NCBI GenBank assembly: GCA_036558065.1
Contig: DATBGG010000035.1
Location: 1 to 55,360, forward strand
Direction: 5' to 3'
Source: Gaiellaceae bacterium
Lineage (GTDB): Bacteria > Actinomycetota > Thermoleophilia > Gaiellales > Gaiellaceae
Length of the DNA: 55,360 nucleotides
Below are positions 11,490-21,945 of the stretch, in pieces (position 1 is the first letter of the stretch; each line of letters begins with the position of its first letter). The translations under genes were made by a program, and so were the position numbers. The notes beneath the pieces were generated by a model that saw only the letters and a program-made list of their open reading frames with translations, was not told the DNA's origin and did not search any database.

Positions 11490-11887
11490 GCGATCGCCGG
11501 CTGCGCCTCGCAGTAGGCGTGCTCTCGACCGCAGGGGCGGCCGTGGCGGGTTACCTCGTGTACGCCCGCTACACCGACACGACGCTCGCGTGCGTCACGG
11601 GAGGCTGCGAGACCGTCCAGCGCTCCGACTACGCGGTGCTCGCCGGGGTGCCCGTCGCCGTGCTTGGGCTCGTGGCCTACCTCGTCCTCCTGGCGACGGC
11701 GTTCTCGACGAGTGAGCTCGCTCGCCTCGTGGGCGCCGTCGTCGCCGTGTCCGGCGCGCTCTTCGCCGCCTACCTGCTCTATGCACAGATCGTCGTCATC
11801 GACGCGGTCTGCCAGTGGTGTGTCACCAGCGACGTCCTGATTGCGCTGCTCGCGGTGACGTGCGTGCTGCGGCTGCGCTCAGGCTAG
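11486..11887 (+). CDS. Vitamin K epoxide reductase (VKOR) family protein
   Basis: 133 aa, 4 TM segments. Loop Cys pair (CVTGGC) and CQWC redox motif. GTGA overlap with the dsbA-like stop. Confidence 0.85.
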   Translation: MSDRRLRLAVGVLSTAGAAVAGYLVYARYTDTTLACVTGGCETVQRSDYAVLAGVPVAVLGLVAYLVLLATAFSTSELARLVGAVVAVSGALFAAYLLYAQIVVIDAVCQWCVTSDVLIALLAVTCVLRLRSG

Positions 11888-13534
11888 GCCGACGATCCGG
11901 CCGCCCGCGTCGAGGTCCATGCGCTCGGCCGCGGAGTGAGGGGGAAGCCCGGGCATCGTCTGCGTCTCGCCGCAGACCGCGACGAGCCAGCCCGCTCCCG
12001 TGTACGCCCGCAGCTCACGGACCGGGAGCACGAAGCCGGTTGGCGCCCCGACGAGCTCCGGGTCGTGCGACAGGGAGAGATGGGTCTTCGCGACACAGAC
12101 GGGAACCTCGTGCAGCTCGGCCGGCAGCCGCTCGAGCGTTTCCCGCGCTGCGGCTGAGAGCTCGACTCCTTCGCCTCCGTAGATCTTCCTGGCCAGCGCG
12201 TCGAGCTTCGTCTCGACCGGGTCGGCGAGGTCGTAGGCGAAGCTCGCCTCGGCCCCGCGACTCGCCGCTTCGGCGACGAGCTCCGCGAGCGCGGCCGCTC
12301 CCTCGCCTCCGTGCGCGTAGGCGTCGTTGATCGCGACCCCGAAGGCGCCGTGCTCGAGCGCGAGAGCCGAGACGGCTTCGAGCTCGACCAGCGCGTCACC
12401 GGGGAATTTGTTCACGGCGACGACCGCGTGGAATCCCAGCTCCTCGACGATCCTCAGGTGCGCGGCGAGATTCTGCGCGCCGCGCTCCAGCGCCGGGAGG
12501 CCTCCGTCGGGATCGCCTCCATGGCGCTTCAGCGCCTGCGTTGTCGCGACGAGGACGACCGCGTCCGGCGAGAGGCCGGCCTGGCGACAGACGATGTGTA
12601 TGAACTTCTCGAACCCCAGGTCGCTGCCGAAGCCGCCTTCGGTGATCACGTAGTCGGCGAGCTTGAGCCCGACGAGGTCGCCCACGAGCGAGCTGTTGCC
12701 ATGCGCGATGTTCGCGAACGGCCCCGCGTGGACGAGGGCCGGCTGGCCCTCGACGGTTTGCACGAGGTTGGGCTTGATCGCGTCCTTGAGCAGGACGGCC
12801 ATGGCGCCGGCGACCTCGAGCTCCTCGGCGGTGACCGCTGCTCCGTCGAACGTGGTCGCGACCGTGATCGCTCCGAGGCGGTGCCTCAGGTCGTCGCGGT
12901 CGCGCGCCATCGCGAGGAGCGCCATCACCTCCGACGCGGCTGTGATGTCGAACCCGCACTCGCGCGGGAACGGCGCGTCCTCGCCCAGCCCGACGGCGAT
13001 CCGCCGCAGCATTCGGTCTTCGATGTCCAGACAGCGGCGCCACGTGATCGTGGCCGGGTCGATGCCCAGCTCGTTGCCGTGGACGAGGTGCGCGTCGATC
13101 GCCGACGCGAGCAGGTTGTTCGCCGCGGCAATCGCGTGCAGGTCGCCGGTGAAGTGGAGGTTGATGTCCTCGCCGGGGACGACCTGAGCGAGCCCGGCGC
13201 CTGTTCCGCCGCCCTTCGCGCCGAGCGTCGGGCCGACCGACGGCTCGCGGAGGCAGACGAGCGAGCTCTCGCCGATGTGGCCGAGGCCCTCCGTGAGGGA
13301 GATCGCGGTCGTCGTCTTGCCTTCGCCGGCCTTGGTCGGCGTGATCGCCGTGACGGCGATCAGCTTTCCGTTGGGCCGGGTGGCGAGCCGATCGAGCACG
13401 CCGAGGCCGATCTTGGCCTTGTCGCGGCCGAAGAGCTCGACCTCGTCGAGATCGAGGTCGACAGCCGCCGCAACCTCGGAGATCGGCCGCAGCTCCGTCG
13501 CGGGCTGCGCATCGACTCGAGTTTCCAAAGCCAT
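11879..13534 (-). CDS. fhs: Formate--tetrahydrofolate ligase
   Basis: 551 aa. TPTKAGEGKTTT P-loop and overall colinearity with remembered Fhs sequences. Confidence 0.95.
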   Translation of the reverse strand: MALETRVDAQPATELRPISEVAAAVDLDLDEVELFGRDKAKIGLGVLDRLATRPNGKLIAVTAITPTKAGEGKTTTAISLTEGLGHIGESSLVCLREPSVGPTLGAKGGGTGAGLAQVVPGEDINLHFTGDLHAIAAANNLLASAIDAHLVHGNELGIDPATITWRRCLDIEDRMLRRIAVGLGEDAPFPRECGFDITAASEVMALLAMARDRDDLRHRLGAITVATTFDGAAVTAEELEVAGAMAVLLKDAIKPNLVQTVEGQPALVHAGPFANIAHGNSSLVGDLVGLKLADYVITEGGFGSDLGFEKFIHIVCRQAGLSPDAVVLVATTQALKRHGGDPDGGLPALERGAQNLAAHLRIVEELGFHAVVAVNKFPGDALVELEAVSALALEHGAFGVAINDAYAHGGEGAAALAELVAEAASRGAEASFAYDLADPVETKLDALARKIYGGEGVELSAAARETLERLPAELHEVPVCVAKTHLSLSHDPELVGAPTGFVLPVRELRAYTGAGWLVAVCGETQTMPGLPPHSAAERMDLDAGGRIVGLA

Positions 13535-13675
13535 GGCTCAACCATGCGCTGTGCGGGAGGCCGTGGCATCAGTGCCGACCCTGAGCCGGCCACGGGTAAC
13601 CCGAAACGTCCTTCGGTGCGTCCTCCGATGCCGTCAGCTGCGCTCGGCCGGACCATCTGGTCGAAAGGAGGAGTG

Positions 13676-14824
13676 ATGACAACTCCAACAAGCACTGTGC
13701 GTGCGCGGCCGGACACCTCGCGCCTGCACCGCGTCGCAGCGGCTGACGCGATGCACCGCGGTGTGCTCAGCGTGCCGTTCGACACTCCGCTGACGAAGGT
13801 CGCTCAGATGATGGCCCGCTACCGGATGCATTGCGTCGTGGCGCTCGAGGAGCACGGCGAGTACCAGACGCGCTACTGGGGCCTGATTCCCACGGCCGAG
13901 GTCGTTCGGATCGCCACCGACCACGATCTCGAGGACCGCACGGCAGGTGGAAGCATCATGTCGCCCGTCTACACCGTCGAGCCTGCCGACTCCCTCCACG
14001 AAGCCGCCGAGCTGATGAGAGACCACGAGGTCGAGCATGTGATCGTGGTCGACCCCGTCTCGGATCGGCCTCTGGGCGTCATCTCGACGCTCGACGTGGT
14101 GCAAGTCCTCGCCGGCGAGACGCATCCCCGGCCGCGAGGCGCGTACCGGGTCGCTCAGATCATGACCAGGAACGTGCTGACCGTCACCCCGGACACACCG
14201 CTCCGCAACGTCGCCCGGCTCATGACCGAGCAGGGCATCTCCGGCGTCCCCGTCGTGGAGAAAGGCAGCGTGCTCGGGATCGTCTCCGAGTCCGACATCG
14301 TCGCCAAGGGACGAGGGCCCGCAGCTCCGCAGGGGCGCATCAAGAGATGGCTCGCCCGCAAGCCGAGGCGTGCAGAAGCCGAACGGCTCGAGGCGCGGAC
14401 GGCAGGCGAGGCCATGACGGCGCCTGCGATCACGATCGAGTCGTGGCGGACCGCGTCGGACGCGGCCGGGCTGATGCTCGACCGGCGCGTCCATCGCGTG
14501 CCGGTGCTCGAGCACGGCAAGCTCGTCGGGATCGTCACGCGAGCCGACCTCGTGAGCGCGTTCTCTCGCTCCGACGAGGAGATCGCGCACGACATCCGCG
14601 ACGACGTGCTTCTCGGGACGTTCTGGATCACCCCGGGAGACGTGGACGCGACCATCCGTCACGGAGAGGTCACCCTGAGGGGAACGGTCGAGTCGGATCT
14701 CCTCACGGAGCTCGTCCCGGAGGCCGTCCAGCGAGTGCCGGGGGTCGTCCGGGTGAAGTCCAGGCTCGTCGCACGGCCGATCGATACGACGCCGGCCGAC
14801 GTCGGGCTGTTCCGGAGAATCTGA
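13676..14824 (+). CDS. CBS-domain protein (four CBS repeats) with C-terminal BON-like domain
   Basis: 382 aa from ATG 13676 (AAGGAGG upstream). Repeated CBS blocks (e.g. GVISTLDVV, GIVSESDIV, GIVTRADLV). C-terminal GEVTLRGTVES...VPGVVRVKSRL. Confidence 0.85.
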   Translation: MTTPTSTVRARPDTSRLHRVAAADAMHRGVLSVPFDTPLTKVAQMMARYRMHCVVALEEHGEYQTRYWGLIPTAEVVRIATDHDLEDRTAGGSIMSPVYTVEPADSLHEAAELMRDHEVEHVIVVDPVSDRPLGVISTLDVVQVLAGETHPRPRGAYRVAQIMTRNVLTVTPDTPLRNVARLMTEQGISGVPVVEKGSVLGIVSESDIVAKGRGPAAPQGRIKRWLARKPRRAEAERLEARTAGEAMTAPAITIESWRTASDAAGLMLDRRVHRVPVLEHGKLVGIVTRADLVSAFSRSDEEIAHDIRDDVLLGTFWITPGDVDATIRHGEVTLRGTVESDLLTELVPEAVQRVPGVVRVKSRLVARPIDTTPADVGLFRRI

Positions 14825-14840: not shown

Positions 14841-14867
14841 GGCCTATCCCGTACCCGCGGGTAGGCC
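14841..14867. terminator. Possible bidirectional hairpin at the convergent junction
   Basis: ggccta (14841-14846) pairs with taggcc (14862-14867), enclosing the palindrome acccgcgggt. It overlaps the last codons of the minus-strand gene. Confidence 0.3.
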
Positions 14868-15602
14868 GCCTGCGGCCCGGTTGACCGCATTGAGCGCCTG
14901 CGCGGTGGAGTCGAGCAACCTTCGCGCCCGGTGGCCCGTCATTCGCTCGCAGACGAAGTCCCAGTGCAGCGACACCCAGTCGCCGGGCTGCAGGGTCTCC
15001 GCGAACGCCAGCCCGTCCGCGCGCCAGTGCACCTCGCGAGGCGCCCACGGGCCGAGTCGAAGCTCGCTCCCGCTCCAGGCAAGAAGGGGTGCGAGCACCT
15101 CGGCCCGGTCTCCTTCGACGGACAGCACCCGCCCCGGCGTCGTCCGGCACTGATCGAGGACGCGCAACGGCTCGTCGACGATCCCGGTGCGCATGAGCCC
15201 GAGCCAGGGGTAGACCGCGAAGACGTGGAACGAATGGTGCGGAACCGCGCCCGCCGCGACCGTGTCGAGGATCTCCCGCCAGCCACGACCCACTCGGCCG
15301 CGGAACCTGTCCTCGACGTGTCGCGCGAGCGAGTCGGGCCCGACCTCGTCCAGCAGGCCGTTCCCGACCCAGTACGCGTCCACGACCCGGGGGTCGAGCG
15401 GGTCGTCGATCCGGTTCGCGGCCGCGATCAGCTCCAGGTACGGCCACGCCCCTTCGAAGGTGCGGGCGAGCTCGGAGAGACCGCGGTCGGAGGCCCGCGC
15501 GTCCCCGTACTCGAGCAGCGTGCGCGGCTCGTCCGCTCCGCAGTAGCCGAGCGCGTTCGGCGCGTAGGCGTAGCGCGCGAAGAGGAGCGGGCCGGCGATC
15601 AT
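14844..15602 (-). CDS. Conserved hypothetical protein with an internal HypC/HupF-like module (last gene of the hydrogenase operon)
   Basis: 252 aa from ATG 15602 (ATGA overlap with the EamA stop). The C-terminal part, CRTTPGRVLSVEGDRAEV...PGDWVSLHWDFVCERM, parallels the HypC motifs C-x3-PG-x-V and GDWVLVHVGFA. Confidence 0.7.
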   Translation of the reverse strand: MIAGPLLFARYAYAPNALGYCGADEPRTLLEYGDARASDRGLSELARTFEGAWPYLELIAAANRIDDPLDPRVVDAYWVGNGLLDEVGPDSLARHVEDRFRGRVGRGWREILDTVAAGAVPHHSFHVFAVYPWLGLMRTGIVDEPLRVLDQCRTTPGRVLSVEGDRAEVLAPLLAWSGSELRLGPWAPREVHWRADGLAFAETLQPGDWVSLHWDFVCERMTGHRARRLLDSTAQALNAVNRAAGGLPAGTG

Positions 15603-16498
15603 GCGGGCGCCGGCGAGACGCGTCTTCGCGCCGGGAGCGCGACGAGAATCGCGCCGGCCGTGATCAGGACCGCGCCGCCCAGGTCGAAGGCCACTCCGTC
15701 GGCCACGCGCGAGAGCACGGCCGTGACGACGGCGCCGAAGACGAGGACGGCGGTCACATCGACCGCCTGCGCCCGGGCGAGCGCCGCGAACCAGGTCGCC
15801 ACGTAGCCGGCCAGGATCAGGCCGGTCAGCAACACCCAGCTCCACTGGTCGCCCGACAGCGAGAAGAGCTGGTCGGCACGCCCCGAGACCACGACCCAGC
15901 CGAGCAGCACGGCCGTTCCGAGCGTCATGCGCGCCATCCCGAGGAGCCGGGAGTCGAGGTCCGCGAGCAGCTTCTTCGCGACGATGATCTCGACCGCCCA
16001 GAGCAGCGTCGCCGCGAAGATCATCGCCTCGCCGGAGCCGAAGGCGACCGTGCCTGCATCACCCACGAGCCAGGCCTGCCCGGCGACGAGCAGCGCGATG
16101 GCGGCCAGATGCGGCCACCCGAGGCGCTCGTGCAGGAGCGGCACCGCGATCAGCGCGACCCACACGACCAGCGTCTTCTGAATGAACGCCGCCTGCGTCG
16201 CCTCCGCGCGCGCGAGCCCCTCGAAGAAGAGCACGAACGGCACGCTGCCGCCGATGACGGCGATCGCGAGCAAGCCGAGCCGGTGCTTGCGGATGCTCGG
16301 GAGCTCGCTGCGCGGGCCTCCGAGCAGCGGTGCCGCGAGCGCGAGCAGGAGGACGCCCGCCACGGCGTTCTTCGCGGTGGTGTAGACGGTCGCGTCGCCG
16401 AAGTGCTTCACCGCATGGCCGTTGACGAAGATCGCGACGCCGCTGATCAGCGCGGTCACGAACGCAAGGGCGACTCCGGTCGCGCGGGTCGAGCTCAT
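15599..16498 (-). CDS. EamA/DMT-superfamily transporter
   Basis: 299 aa, about 10 TM segments, two-repeat EamA-like organisation. ATGA overlaps at both ends. Confidence 0.85.
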   Translation of the reverse strand: MSSTRATGVALAFVTALISGVAIFVNGHAVKHFGDATVYTTAKNAVAGVLLLALAAPLLGGPRSELPSIRKHRLGLLAIAVIGGSVPFVLFFEGLARAEATQAAFIQKTLVVWVALIAVPLLHERLGWPHLAAIALLVAGQAWLVGDAGTVAFGSGEAMIFAATLLWAVEIIVAKKLLADLDSRLLGMARMTLGTAVLLGWVVVSGRADQLFSLSGDQWSWVLLTGLILAGYVATWFAALARAQAVDVTAVLVFGAVVTAVLSRVADGVAFDLGGAVLITAGAILVALPARRRVSPAPA

Positions 16499-16713
16499 TC
16501 AACGCCTCCTTCGCTTCGCAATGCCATGGCTTCCTGGGCCGCTTCGGGATCGAGAACCTCGACGGGCACGCCCAGATGGACGAGCACGTGGTCGCCGTCC
16601 CGCGCGTCCGGGACGAACGCGAGCGGGACGACCTTGCCGCAGCCGAGCCGTCCGACGCGGGCGTCGCCGTCCTCCCAGGACTCGGCCAGCACGTCGATCG
16701 AGCCGAGGCACAT
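16495..16713 (-). CDS. hypC: HypC/HybG/HupF-family hydrogenase assembly chaperone
   Basis: 72 aa, with N-terminal MCLG and GDHVLVHLG motifs. Confidence 0.9.
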   Translation of the reverse strand: MCLGSIDVLAESWEDGDARVGRLGCGKVVPLAFVPDARDGDHVLVHLGVPVEVLDPEAAQEAMALRSEGGVE

Positions 16714-16982
16714 CAGGCTGCCTCCTCGACCTCGACGCTCTCCAGCACGACGCCCTGCGCGTGCTCACCGGTCGTGTCGTCGTCGAGCACGGCTTCGACC
16801 TCGGCGCCCTCGGCGATCGTGCCGCGTGCGGCGTCGCGGTAGTGCTCGCGGAAATGCTCGGGCGTGAAGTGCGAGAGGGCGCCGAGGCGAACCGAGACTC
16901 GGGTGACGCCTCTCGCACCTTCCGTCTCGGCAACGGACACGATCTGGGAGATCAGGTCCCGCATCAGCGCCTGCTCGTGCAT
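16713..16982 (-). CDS. hypA: HypA-like nickel metallochaperone lacking the zinc-finger domain
   Basis: 89 aa from ATG 16982. N-terminal MHE nickel motif. Colinear with remembered HypA, but it contains no cysteine at all. Confidence 0.7.
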   Translation of the reverse strand: MHEQALMRDLISQIVSVAETEGARGVTRVSVRLGALSHFTPEHFREHYRDAARGTIAEGAEVEAVLDDDTTGEHAQGVVLESVEVEEAA

Positions 16983-17428
16983 CCGGCCTCCTCGAGGACG
17001 AGCTCGACGGCGCGCTCGACACCCGCCTGCGCGCCCGGGCTGAGGTCCGTGCCCGACCCGAAGACCTCGCCCTCGATCCCGAAGACGACGATTTGCTCCG
17101 GCAGGCGCCCGAGCGCGCGGGCGAGCTCGATCGTCTCGCCGATCCCGAGCGCGTGCGTGGACGAGCGGAACTCGCGGCTCGGCAGTGCCTCGCGGGTGGC
17201 ATCGAAGCGGTGGACGGTCCCCGGCTCGGCACCGGATGCGACAGCGTCGACCACGAGCGCCGCCTGCGCCCCGTCCCAGGCGTCGATCAGGCGGGTCGGC
17301 TCCAGCTCGCACACGACGACGTCGAGCTCGTCCGACACGCGGTCCTGGACGAGGCGGGCGACCTCGCGGCCGGCTCCGTCGTCGCCCCGGTACGCGTTGC
17401 CGACCCCGATCACGACGGTGCGGCTCAC
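16964..17428 (-). CDS. Hydrogenase maturation endopeptidase (HycI/HoxW-type)
   Basis: 154 aa from GTG 17428 (GTGA overlap with the large-subunit stop). [16 protein letters not shown] and HALGIGE motifs. Confidence 0.85.
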
Positions 17429-18723
17429 CCGCGGACGATCTCCAGGTCGAGGAAGTGCGTGGCGCACGAGATGCAGGGGTCGTAGTTGCGGATCGCCTGC
17501 TCGCAGACGTGCTTCAGCTCGTCGTCGGCGAGCTCGTGGTAGCGGTCGACGACCTGCCGCAGGTCCTCCTCGATCGCGAGCTGGTTCTGGGAGGTCGGCG
17601 GGACGATCTTCGCGTCGAGGATCGTGCCGTCGGAGTCGAGCTCGTAGCGGTGGTAAAGGAGCCCGCGCGGCGCCTCGGTCGCACCGTGGCCCACGCCCGC
17701 GCGCGGCTCGACCTCGGCCGCCGGCGCGTCCGGCTCCTCGTAGGTGTCGATCAGGCGCAGCGCCTCGTCACACGCGTAGACCAGCTCGACGCTGCGAACG
17801 ACGATGCTGCGGAAGGCGTCTCGGCAGGGCGCCTCGAGGCCGACCTCGGCAGCCACCTCGCGGCTGAGCGGGGACAGGCGATCGGCGCCCAGCGCGTAGC
17901 GCGCGAGCGGGCCGCAGAGGTAGGTGCTGCCGTCGCTGCGCCTGGAGTGGAGCGCGTTCGAGCGCGCGACGTGCTCCTCGTAGAAGTGGTCACCGTACTT
18001 CTGGACGGGGGCGTCGAGCCCCTGGTCGGAGACGACCCGGCCCCCCTCGATCGCGTACGTGTCGGGCTCGGAGAGCGCGACCAGCTCGCACTCGACCGCG
18101 CGCTCGGGGAAGTCGAACCCGGCCGTCCAGCGCACGGTCTCGACGGCGGCCTCGCGCGCCCGCTCCAGCGGCTCGACGAGCGCCTGCAGCTCTCTTCGCG
18201 TCGGCGCGCGGTAGAAGCCGCCGACCCTGACGTTGACCGGGTGGATCTCGCGGCCTCCGATCACGATCATCAACTCGTTGCCGGTCTTCTTCAGCTGAAG
18301 CCCGCGCTGCACGACGTCCGGGTGCTCGCGCGCCATCTCGACCGCGCCCTCGTAGCCGAGGAAGTCGGGGGCGTGAAGCATGTACACGTGGAGCGCGTGG
18401 CTCTCGATCCACTCGCCGCAGTAGAGAAGCCGCCGCAGCTGCCGGATCGGGTCGCTCACCTCGACGCCGCACAGATCCTCCATCGCGTTGATCGAGCTCA
18501 TCTGGTACGCGACGGGGCAGATGCCGCAGATGCGCGACGTGATGTCGGGGGCCTCGAGGAACGATCGTCCGCGCAGGAGCGCCTCGAAGAAGCGCGGCGG
18601 CTCGAAGATCCGGAGCTCGACCTCGTCCACCTTGCCGTCCACGAGCCGGACCGACATCGCGCCTTCGCCCTCGACGCGGGCGAGGTAGTCAGTCTTGATC
18701 GTGCGTCGCTTCGGCTCGCTCAC
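17425..18723 (-). CDS. hyhL: [NiFe]-hydrogenase large subunit, group 3b (HyhL / sulfhydrogenase alpha)
   Basis: L1 motif [10 protein letters not shown] and C-terminal L2 motif DPCISCATH. Start taken at GTG 18723 (GGAGG upstream). An ATG at 18789 is an alternative. Confidence 0.9.
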
Positions 18724-19471
18724 GCTGCCTCCGGAAGGCTTCCACGTTAAACGTCGCGAGCGCCCGCTGTAACCCCTTCTCGTCGACACCGAGGTTGCGC
18801 CACCACGCCTCGAGCGAGGCGAGGTTCGGCGTCTCGGCCGGCCCGAAGCAGCCGAAGCACCCTCGGTTGTAGGCGGGGCAGAGCGCGCCGCAGCCGGCCT
18901 GCGTGACCGGGCCCAGGCAGGGGATGCCGTGCGTGACCATCACGCACGGGATGCCGCGGCTCTTGCACTCGACGCACACCGAGTGCGTGGCGATGCTCGG
19001 CTTGCGCCGCTGGAGCATCGCCGCCACGAGCTCCAGCAGCTGGTTCTTGTTGATCGGGCAGCCGCGGAGCTCGAAGTCGACGTCGACGTGGTCGGCGATC
19101 GGCGTCGAGGTCGCGAGCGTGGAGATGTACTCGGGGCTCGCGTAGACGGCTGCGACGTAGTCGTCGATGTCGGCGTAGTTGCGGAGCGCCTGGATGCCGC
19201 CGGCCGTGGCGCAGGCACCGATCGTCACGAGCGCGTGCGACGCGGCGCGGACCTCCTTGATCCGCTCCGCCTCCTCGGGGGTCGTGATCGAGCCCTCGAC
19301 GAGGGAGACGTCGTACGGGCCTTCGACGATCGCGCTCGAGGCCTCGAGGAAATGCGCGATCTGGACGCGGTCGGCGATCGCGAGCAGCTCGTCCTCGACG
19401 TCGAGCAGGCTCAGCTGGCAACCGTCGCAGGAGCTGAACTTCCAGACCGCGAGTGTCGGCCGGGCTTCCAT
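18689..19471 (-). CDS. hyhS: [NiFe]-hydrogenase small subunit, group 3b (HyhS / delta)
   Basis: 260 aa. [16 protein letters not shown] and C-terminal Cys clusters ([11 protein letters not shown]..., [15 protein letters not shown]). Confidence 0.9.
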
Positions 19472-20323
19472 CTAGAGCTCCCTCACCGTGAGCAGGCCAC
19501 CGACCTCGTCCCAGGTGAAGACCGGGCCGTCGCGACAGATCAGGAGCGTTCCCAGCTGGCAGTGGCCGCAATGGCCGATGCCGCAGCTCATGCTGCGCTC
19601 GAGCGAGACGTAGATGCGCTCGGCGGGGACGCCGCGCTGAAGGAGCGCGCCGACGGTGACCCGCATCATCACCTCGGGCCCGCAGACGAGCGCGACCGCC
19701 GGCTCGTCGAGCGTGACGTCGTCGAGCAGAGCCGAGACGAAGCCGACCCGGTCGAGCCATGATCGCGTCCCCGCGTCGACGGTCAGGCGGACGTCCAGCC
19801 CCTCCGTGCGCCAGTCCTCGAGCTGCTGCGGATAGAGCAGGTCGCCCGGAGTGCGCGCGCCGTAGAGCAGGTACGCCCGGCCGTACGCGTCGAGCTGGGC
19901 CAGCACGCCCTCGACCGCGGGCCTGAGCGGCGCCAGGCCGAGCCCGCCGGCGAGCACTACGACATCCCCGCCGAGCGCTTCCTCGAGCGGCCAGGTCGTC
20001 CCGAACGGCCCGCGGACGCCGATCGTCCCGCCGCGAGGGATGCGGCAGAGCTCGGCGGTGACCGCGCCGACGTCGCGAATCGTGTGGATCAGCGAGCCGC
20101 CGGCTCCGCGGCCGCTCAGCGAGATCGGGACCTCGCCGACGCCGTAGGCGGTGAGCATCGCGAACTGCCCCGGCTCCGGATCGATCGGCTGTCCGGCGAG
20201 CGGCTCCAGCTCGATCGTCCACGTGTCGGCCGTCTCGCGGCCGCGGCTGCGGACGGTGTACGGCACCGGCACCATCGGGCCCGGCGAGAGCTGAAGAGGC
20301 TCAACCGCCACGTCCGCCTCCAT
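19472..20323 (-). CDS. hyhG: Sulfhydrogenase gamma-type FAD/NAD(P)-binding [2Fe-2S] subunit (HyhG)
   Basis: 283 aa. Ferredoxin-NADP-reductase-like fold signatures and a C-terminal [10 protein letters not shown] cluster. Confidence 0.85.
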
Positions 20324-20768
20324 AGAGGTCGGCGAGCCTCAGCCGCGTCGCGTTCAGGCGCTCGAGGAGCACCGCCGAGAAGCGCGTCATCAGCTCGTAG
20401 CCCAGCAGCGGGTCGGCCTCGCACTTCGTGCGCAGACAGGCTCCGTTCACCACGATCGCGCGCACTGGGGCGACCGCCCGCGCGTCGAAGTGCCACGTAT
20501 GCGGCGGGAAGAGCCACGACCAGCCGACGACGTCGCCGGCCTCGATCGTCTCGATCGTCATTGCGCCACGACCGGGGACGTAGAGCTCGAGGGCGACGCG
20601 TCCCTTGCGCAGGATGTAGAAGACGTCCGCCGGCTCTCCTTCACGGAACAGGGTCTCGCCGGCTTCGAACCCGATCGTCTTCGAGCAGCCCGCGAGCTGC
20701 TCGGGGCACCCTTCGCAGAGCCCGGCGAACAAAGGTGAGTCGAGCACGACCTGGTCAAGCGTTTTCAT
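20301..20768 (-). CDS. Cyclic-nucleotide-binding-like (CAP effector) domain protein without a DNA-binding domain
   Basis: 155 aa. [21 protein letters not shown] beta-roll signature. Overlaps hyhB by 14 nt and hyhG by 23 nt. Confidence 0.8.
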
Positions 20769-21945
20769 CGCCGGCTCCTTCCCGGACGCGGACCGCAGCC
20801 GCCTCCTCGGTGATGTCGATCCCGACCGGGCACCACGCGATGCAGCGCCCGCAGCCGACGCAGCCGCTCGTCCCGAACTGGTCGTGCCAGGTCGCGAGCT
20901 TGTGCGTCATCCACTGGCGGTAGCGCGAGCGCCCGCTCTGGCGGACGCTGCCGCCGGCCACGTACGAGTGGTCGAGCGAGAAGCAGCTGTTCCAGACACG
21001 ATCGCGCTCCACGACCTCGCCGGTCAGGTCGGCAGTGTCCTCGACCCCGACGCAGAAGCAGGTCGGGCAGACGAGCGTGCAGTTCCCGCAGGACAGGCAG
21101 CGGTCGGCGACCTCGTCCCAGCGTGGGTGCTCGAGGTTCTGGAGGATGTCCTCCTTCAAGCCTTCGGTGTCGAGCGTTCGGCCCATGCTCGCGCGCGCGT
21201 TGTCGACGAGCGCCTCTCTCGCGTCCTGATCCGGAGAGCCGGCGGCTTCGTGCGGGACCTCGGCCATGACCTCAGCGCCGCGCTCGCTTCCGATCCGGAC
21301 GAGGAAGCGGTGCTCACCGTTCATCAGCTCGGTGAGCGCGAGGTCGAAGCCGCTCTCAGCCGACGGGCCGGTGCCCATCGAGTCGCAGAAGCAGAGCCGG
21401 CCCGGCTCGGCGCAGTCGACGACGACGACGAAGATTCCTTCGCGCCGCGCCGCGTAGTCGTGGTCGACATAGCGGCCGCCCGTGAGCACACGGTCCTGGA
21501 TCCCGATCGCGGCCAGGTCGCAGCTGCGCACGCCGAAGAAGGCGAACGGCTTCTCCGGCGGGGGCTCTTCCTCGACTTCGGGGGCGCCGCCGTTCAGCCG
21601 CGCTCGCCAGAGACGGATGCGAGGCGGCAGCAGGAACTGCTTCCACGAGTGCGGCCCGACCGCGAAGCCGAAGCGTGCCTCGTCGTCGCGGCGCTCGACC
21701 CTGTAGGAGCCTGGGGCGTGAATCTCGGTGTAGCCCGAGGGAAGGTCGTCGGCGGACTCGAGCTCGTCGTAGAGGATCGCACCGTCCCGCAACTTCGGCC
21801 CCACGACCTGGTAGCCGCGGCCCCGAAGCGCATCGACGAGGCTGCTCAGCCCGTCGAGCGTGATCAAAACGTCGCTGCTCGGCTGCACGCTCACTCCTGC
21901 GACAATCGTTCCGGAAGAGCGTAACCCCTGCTTCAGGGCAGACAC
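20755..21945 (-). CDS. hyhB: Sulfhydrogenase beta-type 4Fe-4S subunit (HyhB)
   Basis: 396 aa. [16 protein letters not shown] and [12 protein letters not shown] motifs. An alternative GTG start lies at 21888, after a GGAG. Confidence 0.85.

What the first reader, a model, noticed from the sequence alone, without database searches (positions are those of the whole stretch)
14844..15602. A 252-aa protein with an internal HypC-like module ends the hydrogenase operon
The segment QCRTTPGRVLSVEGDRAEV ... LQPGDWVSLHWDFVCERM aligns by eye with E. coli HypC, which I recall as MCIGVPGQIRTIDGNQAKV ... VGQWVLVHVGFAMSV. The match includes the C-x3-PG-x-V signature. Here the cysteine is about 150 residues inside the protein rather than at position 2. 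In HypC the N-terminal Cys is essential for carrying the Fe(CN)2CO precursor. A canonical 72-aa HypC is also present in the same operon. This could be an uncharacterised maturation or scaffold factor. It might need processing to expose the Cys, or it might act as a HypC decoy or large-subunit chaperone in the way HupF does.
Basis: partly seen in the sequence, partly recalled or inferred. Interest (0 to 1): 0.65.

Follow-up and report, generated by a model that had tools for sequence, protein, structure and literature searches.

The report
HypC-like domain inside hydrogenase accessory protein
The last gene of this nickel-iron hydrogenase operon encodes an uncharacterised but widespread protein (Pfam DUF6390) whose rear half is a copy of the iron-carrying chaperone HypC with its key cysteine and histidine kept, so it is probably an overlooked metal-handling helper or sensor for hydrogenase assembly.

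Summary
Window 14844-15602 (-) is a real 252-aa gene, translationally coupled to the gene upstream, and the last gene of a HyhBGSL-type [NiFe]-hydrogenase operon. It is a full-length member of Pfam DUF6390 (E 3.7e-92), a family with no literature.

Residues 152-245 are a HypC-type OB barrel plus C-terminal helix. The support is a sub-threshold Pfam HupF_HypC hit, profile-profile P 1.6e-7 against shuffles of at least 0.13, HypC/HupF as the only PDB sequence hits, and T. kodakarensis HypC as the top Foldseek hit. Cys152 aligns with HypC Cys2 and His213 with HypC His51, and both are invariant. Cys21, His123, His126 and Cys218 are nearly so. The N-terminal helical domain matches no solved structure.

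The gene sits in [NiFe]-hydrogenase or hyp clusters of several hydrogenase types in at least four phyla, usually as HypC-EamA-DUF6390. The domain also occurs fused to GntR, PadR, XRE and MarR DNA-binding domains and to the EamA transporter, often beside NikA-like or other ABC importers.

Best reading: a HypC-derived Cys/His metal-binding accessory and sensor module. Whether the ligand is iron or nickel is unresolved. It fails HypC membership because the Cys is internal and scores are below threshold. I found no evidence for processing.

The parts
14844..15602 (-). DUF6390 gene, 252 aa, the last gene of the operon
   Evidence: The ORF and its translation are. The codon-position GC pattern is coding-like. 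Pfam PF19927 matches residues 3-243 with E 3.7e-92. Soil metatranscriptome contigs lie on 14990-15353.
15150..15602 (-). N-terminal all-helical domain, residues 1-151. It carries Cys21 (15540-15542), His123 (15234-15236) and His126 (15225-15227).
   Evidence: AF2 models are. No PDB structure matches it (best E 1.4, probability 0.07). Conservation: C21 203/204, H123 203/204, H126 196/204.
14868..15149 (-). HypC-like module, residues 152-245: beta-barrel 155-221 plus C-terminal helix 223-245. It carries Cys152 (15147-15149), His213 (14964-14966) and Cys218 (14949-14951).
   Evidence: Sequence, profile and fold evidence are. Conservation: C152 254/254, H213 220/220, W214 220/220, C218 215/220.
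15599..16498 (-). EamA/DMT-family membrane transporter. Its stop overlaps the DUF6390 start.
   Evidence: Pfam EamA, E 7.4e-27. It lies directly upstream of DUF6390 in 75 of 80 loci. Natural EamA-DUF6390 fusions exist.
16495..16713 (-). Canonical HypC, 72 aa, starting MC..., with the conserved His in VLVHLG
   Evidence: PF01455, E 4.6e-11, above the Pfam cutoff. A HypC-like ORF lies upstream of EamA/DUF6390 in 71 of 77 loci.
16713..16982 (-). Short HypA-like protein, 89 aa, starting MHE, with no Cys and so no zinc-finger part
   Evidence: It matches only HypA profile positions 1-64 of 112.
16964..17467 (-). Hydrogenase maturation endopeptidase
   Evidence: Pfam HycI E 6.9e-15; TIGR00072 E 8.8e-35.
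17425..18789 (-). [NiFe]-hydrogenase large subunit. This is the maximal ORF; the true start is probably later.
   Evidence: Pfam NiFeSe_Hases, E 2.4e-25.
18689..19471 (-). Hydrogenase small subunit
   Evidence: Pfam Oxidored_q6, E 2.5e-23.
19472..20323 (-). HyhG-type NAD(P)/FAD and Fe-S subunit
   Evidence: Pfam NAD_binding_1 plus DHODB_Fe-S_bind.
20301..20768 (-). Protein consisting only of a cyclic-nucleotide-binding domain
   Evidence: Pfam cNMP_binding, E 4.3e-15. Conserved at this position in 68 of 80 loci.
20755..21945 (-). HyhB-type 4Fe-4S subunit, the first gene of the operon
   Evidence: Pfam Fer4_22, E 8.9e-33.

Best explanation
**What it is.** The gene encodes a two-domain cytoplasmic accessory protein of [NiFe]-hydrogenase biogenesis. 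A novel helical domain (residues 1-151) is joined to a HypC-derived OB barrel with a C-terminal helix (residues 152-245).

**How it most likely works.**
- The barrel keeps the two residues that HypC uses to hold the iron of the Fe(CN)2CO group: Cys152 corresponds to Cys2, and His213 to His51.
- Together with Cys218 and with Cys21, His123 and His126 of the helical domain, these residues probably form an interdomain Cys/His metal site.
- I commit to iron as the most likely ligand, either an iron ion or an early Fe-ligand intermediate. The protein would hold it or hand it over to the co-encoded HypC, and from there to HypD.
- The EamA transporter acts in the same pathway. Its substrate is unknown.
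- In other lineages the same domain is fused to DNA-binding domains. There, occupancy of the site is read out as transcription of metal importer and hydrogenase genes.

**Shown:** the fold, the conserved residues, the gene linkage and the fusions.

**Inferred:** that the conserved residues cluster into one site, that a metal is bound, which metal it is, and any contact with HypC or HypD.
For: **HypC fold and residue equivalence**
- Sequence, profile and fold comparisons all point to HypC, with clean controls.
- C152, H213 and W214 are invariant. C21, H123, H126 and C218 are 96-99.5% conserved, including in the fused forms.
- HypC C2 is essential. H51 is proposed to help coordinate the iron together with HypD C41 (PMC12134894).

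**Gene context**
- The same operon order is found in about 68 of 80 genome loci across Thermoleophilia, Actinomycetes and Acidimicrobiia.
- A HypC gene lies directly upstream in 71 of 77 loci.
- HypC-DUF6390 pairs persist at 32-33% identity.
- The gene overlaps the stop of hypD on a Mycobacterium intracellulare plasmid. On a Sulfobacillus acidophilus plasmid it follows hypFCDE and tatA.
- In a Mycobacteriales MAG it lies between hypB and a hydrogenase small subunit. In Limnocylindrales it follows the protease and HypA.

**Fusions that argue for ligand binding and a link to transport**
- GntR, PadR, XRE and MarR fusions, and EamA fusions, are each seen on several independent contigs or from several sources.
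- A GntR fusion lies directly upstream of an ABC importer whose domain make-up I read as FbpABC-like. Nramp and SufE genes lie near other fusions.

**Expression**
- RNA-library contigs from soil lie on the gene and on the rest of the operon.
Against: - No coordinates were available from the model. That the six Cys/His residues cluster in space is therefore an inference.
- Formal HypC thresholds are not met. Only 6 of 68 family members give any Pfam HupF_HypC hit.
- HypC function is thought to need the Cys at the free N-terminus, which this protein lacks.
- Two HTH fusions lie next to ABC importers whose binding proteins score best as NikA, although below the cutoff. HypA or HypB neighbours occur in some loci. 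Both points favour nickel over iron.
- The binding protein of the importer I read as FbpABC-like scored best as 2-aminoethylphosphonate-type, not iron-type.
- Fusion to DNA-binding domains is unusual for a pure chaperone.
- HypD, HypE and HypF are not within 10 kb in the group-3b-type loci.
- There is no experimental datum on any family member.
Confidence: 0.4

Rival explanations
1. Nickel handling. The Cys3His3 site binds Ni(II). The stand-alone protein would be a nickel chaperone or buffer that works with the EamA transporter and with HypA/HypB. The HTH-fused forms would be nickel-responsive regulators of Nik-type importers.
For: - PadR- and XRE-DUF6390 genes sit next to SBP_bac_5 ABC systems. 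The best NCBIfam match of their binding proteins is nickel_nikA (E 5.5e-44 and 1.8e-49).
- A short HypA with an MHE start lies in the same operon in the window.
- HypA or HypB neighbours occur in L068, L072 and L069.
- Mixed Cys/His sites are typical of nickel sensors and chaperones (own knowledge).
Against: - The NikA matches are far below the family cutoff (150-169 bits against 393). Peptide and opine binders score nearly as well.
- The residues kept from HypC are its iron ligands.
- The most frequent neighbour is HypC, not HypA or HypB.
- EamA/DMT carriers are not known to move bare Ni(II) (own knowledge).
Confidence: 0.3
2. HypC mimic without a cofactor. The HypC-like barrel would dock on HypD, on the co-encoded HypC or on the large-subunit precursor. 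It would act as a specificity factor, holdase or decoy in the manner of HupF or HoxL. The conserved Cys/His residues would serve structure or redox chemistry.
For: It has the HypC fold with a C-terminal helix. It is adjacent to HypC or HypD in most contexts.
Against: This does not explain repeated fusion to four families of DNA-binding domains and to a transporter. It also does not explain the near-invariant Cys/His residues in the non-HypC domain.
Confidence: 0.12
3. Regulatory or substrate-binding partner of the EamA carrier for an organic molecule, for example a metallophore or another metabolite. The link to hydrogenase would then be indirect.
For: EamA and DUF6390 are adjacent in 75 of 80 loci and are fused in two clusters. 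HTH fusions fit a small-molecule sensor domain. CntA-type opine-binder models also hit the neighbouring binding proteins.
Against: Many DUF6390 genes have no EamA neighbour but still lie in hyp or hydrogenase clusters. The HypC iron ligands are conserved.
Confidence: 0.1
4. A precursor that is cleaved before Cys152, releasing a canonical HypC with an N-terminal Cys.
For: Only the collinear alignment of residues 152-245 with full-length HypC supports this.
Against: - The N-terminal domain is conserved with its own invariant Cys/His residues.
- The interdomain packing is predicted with confidence (pTM 0.92).
- There is no conserved cleavage-like motif. Position 151 is variable.
- There is no internal start codon.
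- A canonical HypC is already encoded next to it.
Confidence: 0.03

Closest known systems
HypC/HybG family chaperones (Pfam PF01455, TIGR00074), for example T. kodakarensis HypC (PDB 2z1c, 3vyr) and E. coli HypC (2ot2)
   Same: Both have an OB beta-barrel followed by a C-terminal helix. A Cys is followed by x3-[PW]-[GA]-x-V at the start of strand 1. A His sits in the G-D-W-V-x-x-H strand. Both are encoded in hydrogenase or hyp operons.
   Different: - The Cys is residue 152, not residue 2, so there is no free N-terminal Cys.
- A conserved 150-residue helical domain precedes the barrel.
- The barrel has an extra conserved Trp214 and Cys218.
- The protein is 252 aa rather than 70-100 aa.
- Scores are below the family thresholds.
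- The domain occurs fused to DNA-binding domains and to a transporter.
HupF/HoxL-type HypC paralogues, which are large-subunit-specific chaperones
   Same: It is a second HypC-fold protein encoded beside a canonical HypC in a hydrogenase cluster. A role specific to one enzyme is therefore plausible.
   Different: As far as I know, HupF and HoxL keep the N-terminal Cys and differ by C-terminal extensions (own knowledge). Here the extension is N-terminal and buries the Cys within the chain.
Pfam DUF6390 (PF19927), annotated by NCBI as 'DUF6390 family protein'
   Same: The window protein is a typical full-length member (E 3.7e-92). There are more than 4,580 relatives in the 90%-identity clusters and 1,194 clusters at 50% identity.
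   Different: Nothing differs; this is the family it belongs to. The family has no described function, and no paper in the searched library mentions it.
Mop/TOBE molybdate-binding OB domains (ModE, ModC, molbindins). This is an analogy of use, not homology.
   Same: A small OB-type ligand-binding module is found stand-alone, fused to DNA-binding domains, and attached to transporters of the same pathway (own knowledge for Mop/TOBE; for DUF6390).
   Different: No sequence or fold relationship was detected. The ligand chemistry differs: an oxyanion there, a presumed Cys/His-bound metal here.

Membership tests
HypC/HybG/HupF (PF01455, TIGR00074) | Score at or above the curated family threshold | tested here: not met
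   PF01455 gives 21.1 bits against a cutoff of 28.5. TIGR00074 gives 14.2 bits against 48. Only 6 of 68 family members give any hit at E below 0.01.
HypC/HybG/HupF (PF01455, TIGR00074) | The essential Cys is the first residue after the initiator Met (Cys2) | tested here: not met
   The aligned Cys is residue 152. The preceding codon is CAG (Gln), and position 151 is variable, so there is no internal start. That C2 is essential is stated in PMC12134894.
HypC/HybG/HupF (PF01455, TIGR00074) | OB-fold beta-barrel followed by a C-terminal alpha-helix | tested here: met
   The AF2 model (pLDDT 95.7) has strands at 155-221 and a helix at 223-245. The top Foldseek hit in the PDB is HypC 2z1c with probability 1.0 and target TM 0.66. 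E. coli HypC 2ot2 ranks ninth.
HypC/HybG/HupF (PF01455, TIGR00074) | A conserved His equivalent to E. coli His51 | tested here: met
   His213 aligns with the HypC His in 'GDWVIVHTGF'. It is invariant in 220 of 220 sequences.
HypC/HybG/HupF (PF01455, TIGR00074) | Small single-domain protein of about 70-100 aa | tested here: not met
   The protein is 252 aa with a conserved 150-residue N-terminal domain.
HypC/HybG/HupF (PF01455, TIGR00074) | Forms complexes with HypD and the large-subunit precursor, and carries Fe(CN)2CO | not testable with these tools
   This needs biochemistry. Only gene adjacency to HypC or HypD is shown here.
DUF6390 (PF19927) | Full-length match above the Pfam gathering score | tested here: met
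   308.7 bits against a cutoff of 25. Residues 3-243 cover profile positions 4-240 of 244.
DUF6390 (PF19927) | The family's invariant residues (C21, H123, H126, C152, H213, W214, C218) are present | tested here: met
   All are present in the window protein.
Group 3b (HyhBGSL-type) [NiFe]-hydrogenase operon, as context | Four structural subunits: a 4Fe-4S beta subunit, an NAD(P)/FAD gamma subunit, a small delta subunit and a large alpha subunit | tested here: met
   Fer4_22, NAD_binding_1 plus DHODB_Fe-S_bind, Oxidored_q6 and NiFeSe_Hases occur in that order.
Group 3b (HyhBGSL-type) [NiFe]-hydrogenase operon, as context | Phylogenetic placement of the large subunit in group 3b (HydDB-type classification) | not tested
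   No classifier or reference tree was available. The assignment rests on subunit architecture only.

The most novel reading that the evidence does not exclude
DUF6390 would be a previously unrecognised metal- or cofactor-sensing domain that evolved from HypC. It would be used in three ways: as a stand-alone factor in [NiFe]-cofactor assembly, as the input domain of GntR, PadR, XRE and MarR regulators that control nickel or iron import for hydrogenases, and as the cytosolic domain of a DMT transporter. If its ligand is iron or an Fe-ligand intermediate, it could be part of the still unresolved route that brings iron to the HypC-HypD scaffold in Actinomycetota and other aerobes.
Probability: 0.3. 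Interest if true: 0.8.

Novelty: new variant of a known kind. Interest (0 to 1): 0.6.

Why it matters
**Open questions it touches.** [NiFe]-hydrogenase maturation is described as needing six Hyp proteins, plus HypX in air. The source of the iron for the Fe(CN)2CO group is still described as unresolved (abstract of PMC10847431, listed). How soil Actinomycetota coordinate metal supply with hydrogenase synthesis is, to my knowledge, also poorly understood.

**What this family offers.**
- It has more than a thousand 50%-identity clusters.
- It is embedded in hydrogenase clusters of several hydrogenase types and phyla.
- It keeps HypC's iron ligands and is also used as a regulator input domain.
- It is therefore a concrete, testable candidate for an additional maturation or metal-sensing component. 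These bacteria include atmospheric-H2 oxidisers.

**Annotation consequence.** DUF6390 should be described as an N-terminal helical domain plus a HypC-like OB domain, hydrogenase-associated.

Tried and rejected
- **BLASTP against the operon's own HypC.** Not significant (E 0.14).
- **hhalign against a narrow HypC alignment (Gaiellales-type only).** Gave only 61% probability. A more diverse HypC profile was needed.
- **Pfam scan of 68 diverse members.** HupF_HypC was seen in only 6, so single-sequence HMM evidence alone is weak.
- **N-terminal domain.** A separate AF2 model (pLDDT 87) searched with Foldseek against the PDB found nothing (best E 1.4). hhalign against HypD gave P 0.39, so the idea of a single-chain HypC-HypD mimic has no homology support.
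- **Literature.** No paper mentions DUF6390. No paper combines 'HypC-like' with hydrogenase and Actinobacteria. The Frankia hydrogenase paper only mentions 'hypothetical' genes. M. smegmatis papers list only MSMEG_3927-3931 for Hyd3.
- **Internal start or processing.** No start codon precedes Cys152 and no conserved cleavage motif exists.
- **HypD, HypE and HypF.** None was found in the window or within 10 kb in the group-3b-type loci. Whether these genomes carry them elsewhere could not be checked.
- **Spatial clustering of the Cys/His residues.** Model coordinates are not exposed by the tools, so this could not be measured.
- **ABC importer next to the GntR fusion.** Its identity stayed ambiguous: the best hits were 2-aminoethylphosphonate-type models, far below the cutoffs.
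Full report
**1. The gene**

- Window 14844-15602 (-) is an ATG-started ORF of 252 aa. Its start overlaps the stop codon of the upstream EamA-family transporter gene (ATGA).
- The codon-position GC pattern is that of a real high-GC gene (0.75/0.52/0.90). The longer GTG-started ORF up to 15845 is not coding-like in its extra part.
- A convergent CBS/BON gene ends at 14824. The gene is therefore the last of a minus-strand operon with this order:
  - HyhB-like 4Fe-4S subunit (20755-21945)
  - cNMP-binding protein (20301-20768)
  - HyhG-like NAD/FAD subunit (19472-20323)
  - small subunit (18689-19471)
  - large subunit (17425-18789)
  - maturation protease (16964-17467)
  - a short HypA (16713-16982)
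  - HypC (16495-16713)
  - EamA (15599-16498)
  - this gene
- Short contigs from four soil metatranscriptome libraries lie on parts of the whole operon, including 14990-15353 inside this gene. This fits expression in situ. Contigs carry no strand information, and DNA carry-over cannot be excluded.

**2. Family**

- The protein is a full-length member of Pfam DUF6390 (PF19927, E 3.7e-92).
- The family is large. More than 4,580 proteins matched in the 90%-identity collection, with Gaiella and Gaiellaceae among the few named ones. There are 1,194 clusters at 50% identity.
- No paper in the searched library mentions DUF6390.

**3. The HypC-like module**

Evidence from single sequences is weak but consistent.
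- Pfam HupF_HypC gives E 3.6e-4, below the threshold.
- The two best PDB sequence hits are T. kodakarensis HypC, with E about 0.013. The operon's genuine HypC matches the same chains only at E about 3e-4.

Profile and fold evidence is stronger.
- A profile of 68 diverse family members (alignment A2, 31-85% identity) hits only three PDB sequences, all HypC/HupF. It aligns the family's 'CrirwGkV' with HypC 'CLAVPGKV'.
- hhalign of the C-terminal part against a diverse HypC profile gives 93.9% probability (P 1.6e-7) locally. In global mode it gives P 3.1e-7, with Cys152 placed on HypC Cys2.
- Controls: the N-terminal half gives P 0.28, the reversed alignment P 0.39, and 20 column shuffles P 0.13-0.91.
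- AlphaFold2 on A2 gives a confident model (pLDDT 95.7, pTM 0.92). It has ten helices in residues 4-152, five strands in 155-221 and a helix at 223-245.
- Foldseek against the PDB ranks HypC 2z1c first (probability 1.0, TM 0.66 on the target, 84 columns, 28% identity). Generic OB folds follow, and E. coli HypC 2ot2 ranks ninth.

**4. Conserved residues**

- Cys152, His213 and Trp214 are invariant. Counts are 254/254 for Cys152 and 220/220 each for His213 and Trp214.
- Cys21 (203/204), His123 (203/204), His126 (196/204) and Cys218 (215/220) are nearly invariant.
- Cys152 and His213 are the aligned equivalents of HypC Cys2 and His51. A 2025 review describes Cys2 as essential and His51 as possibly coordinating the iron together with HypD Cys41 (PMC12134894).
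The family motif is C-R-[TIV]-x-[PW]-[GA]-x-V.
- The N-terminal domain, modelled alone (pLDDT 87), has no significant match in the PDB (best E 1.4). It has no profile similarity to HypD.

**5. Genomic context**

- A scan of one genome per species returned 80 loci. tblastn with the window's proteins shows the same gene order, HyhB-cNMP-HyhG-HyhS-HyhL-protease-(HypA)-HypC-EamA-DUF6390, in about 68 of them. These span Thermoleophilia, several orders of Actinomycetes and Acidimicrobiia.
- Most exceptions are short contigs or decayed copies.
- The Actinomycete-type loci seemed at first to lack HypC. They do have an 'MCLGE...GDWVVCHSGFAL' gene in the gap. Overall, 71 of 77 evaluable loci have a HypC-like ORF just upstream.
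- The link is not limited to group 3b:
  - A Mycobacteriales MAG has hypB, then DUF6390, then hydrogenase small and large subunits of a different type.
  - Limnocylindrales contigs have protease-HypA-DUF6390.
  - A Mycobacterium intracellulare subsp. chimaera plasmid has hypF-hypC-...-hypE-hypC-hypD-DUF6390, with the DUF6390 start overlapping the hypD stop. This lies in a cluster with NifU, NHL-repeat and SIS genes, which is group-2a-like according to the description in PMC11879354.
  - A Sulfobacillus acidophilus plasmid has hypFCDE-tatA-DUF6390 upstream of a cytochrome-b-containing hydrogenase.
- Distant members at 32-33% identity keep HypC-EamA-DUF6390 or HypC-DUF6390.
- HypD, HypE and HypF are not within 10 kb in the group-3b-type loci, nor in the window.

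**6. Fusions**

Among the representatives, DUF6390 is fused to several other domains.
- **EamA (P0219).** Found in a Candidatus Kerfeldbacteria MAG and in an independent run, next to hydrogenase subunits and an Nramp gene.
- **GntR (P0134).** Found on 9 contigs, directly upstream of an ABC importer.
- **PadR (P0199).** The cluster has 15 members. The gene lies upstream of an SBP_bac_5 ABC system. A second PadR fusion, P0231, lies next to a HypC gene.
- **XRE-type HTH (P0249).** Sits between a HypC gene and Nik/Opp-type ABC systems, beside a hydrogenase cluster.
- **MarR, C-terminal (P0168).** The cluster has 17 members, including Pseudonocardiales MAGs. A HypC gene lies upstream.

The fused forms keep the Cys/His residues, apart from His126 in two of them. 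The neighbouring SBP_bac_5 proteins score best against the NikA model, but far below its cutoff.

Recruitment by four unrelated families of DNA-binding domains is the signature of a ligand-binding input domain. Fusion to the transporter that is otherwise its neighbour argues for a direct functional link.

**7. Interpretation**

- **Shown:** a HypC-fold module with HypC's two iron-ligand positions conserved, an unmatched helical domain with further invariant Cys/His residues, obligate residence in hydrogenase or hyp clusters, and use as a fusion partner of regulators and a DMT carrier.
- **Inferred:** the Cys/His residues form one metal site at the domain interface. The protein binds iron (my choice, because the retained residues are HypC's iron ligands and HypC or HypD are the commonest neighbours) or nickel (favoured by the NikA-like importers and HypA/HypB neighbours). 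It acts with HypC and EamA in metal supply to the enzyme. The fused forms report site occupancy to transcription.
- **Found wanting:**
  - Processing to expose the Cys is unsupported.
  - A pure decoy does not explain the fusions.
  - The protein fails HypC membership on the N-terminal Cys, on size and on thresholds, even though it may work partly like HypC.

**8. Verdict**

- The gene is an ordinary member of a catalogued but uncharacterised family.
- I found no description in the searched literature of its relation to HypC, its tight link to hydrogenase clusters, or its use as a regulator input domain. These three points make it a good experimental target.

Noticed in passing
window 16713-16982 (-): The operon's HypA is only 89 aa. 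It starts with the nickel-binding MHE motif but contains no cysteine, so it lacks the zinc-finger half of canonical HypA. It matches only HypA profile positions 1-64 of 112. The same short form recurs in about 43 Thermoleophilia-type loci.
   Followed up: partly
window 20301-20768 (-): A 155-aa protein consisting only of a cyclic-nucleotide-binding domain lies between the HyhB and HyhG genes. It is conserved at that position in 68 of 80 related loci. This insert in a hydrogenase structural operon is unexplained.
   Followed up: partly
window 11879-14824: Formate-tetrahydrofolate ligase (11879-13534, -) and a 4xCBS+BON protein (13700-14824, +) lie just downstream of the operon. They are found there only in the closest relatives (9-12 loci). 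N10-formyl-THF is the substrate from which HypX makes CO in aerobes (own knowledge), so the neighbourhood may be worth a look. It may also be mere synteny.
   Followed up: no
L098 10070-10780 (Mycobacterium intracellulare subsp. chimaera AH16 plasmid): A 236-aa protein is annotated as HypC/HybG/HupF, but its HypC match covers only residues 191-235, preceded by 'CVTCSDEGRLGEV'. It is a second kind of long protein with a C-terminal HypC-like module, in the same cluster as two normal HypC genes and DUF6390.
   Followed up: partly
L081 5324-5587, L090 4075-4326, L095 303-509: The HypC paralogues that sit next to distant DUF6390 genes lack the conserved His (for example GDWVLSLNNFAI and GDWGLVYLGMVV), whereas DUF6390 always keeps it.
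   Followed up: no
L093 8001-9692 (Candidatus Kerfeldbacteria MAG, MBI5465924.1): An EamA-DUF6390 fusion protein lies next to small and large [NiFe]-hydrogenase subunits and an Nramp transporter, in a Candidate Phyla Radiation genome.
   Followed up: partly
L087 2466-3650: A 394-aa protein with no Pfam or NCBIfam match lies between the PadR-DUF6390 regulator gene and a NikA-like ABC importer. It is conserved on several contigs.
   Followed up: no
window 15752-16991 in RNA runs X11 and X12: Metatranscriptome contigs show a joint that skips 1,238 bases (EamA, HypC and HypA), with 17 unmatched letters in between. It is probably a related strain or locus that lacks these genes, or an assembly chimera.
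   Followed up: no
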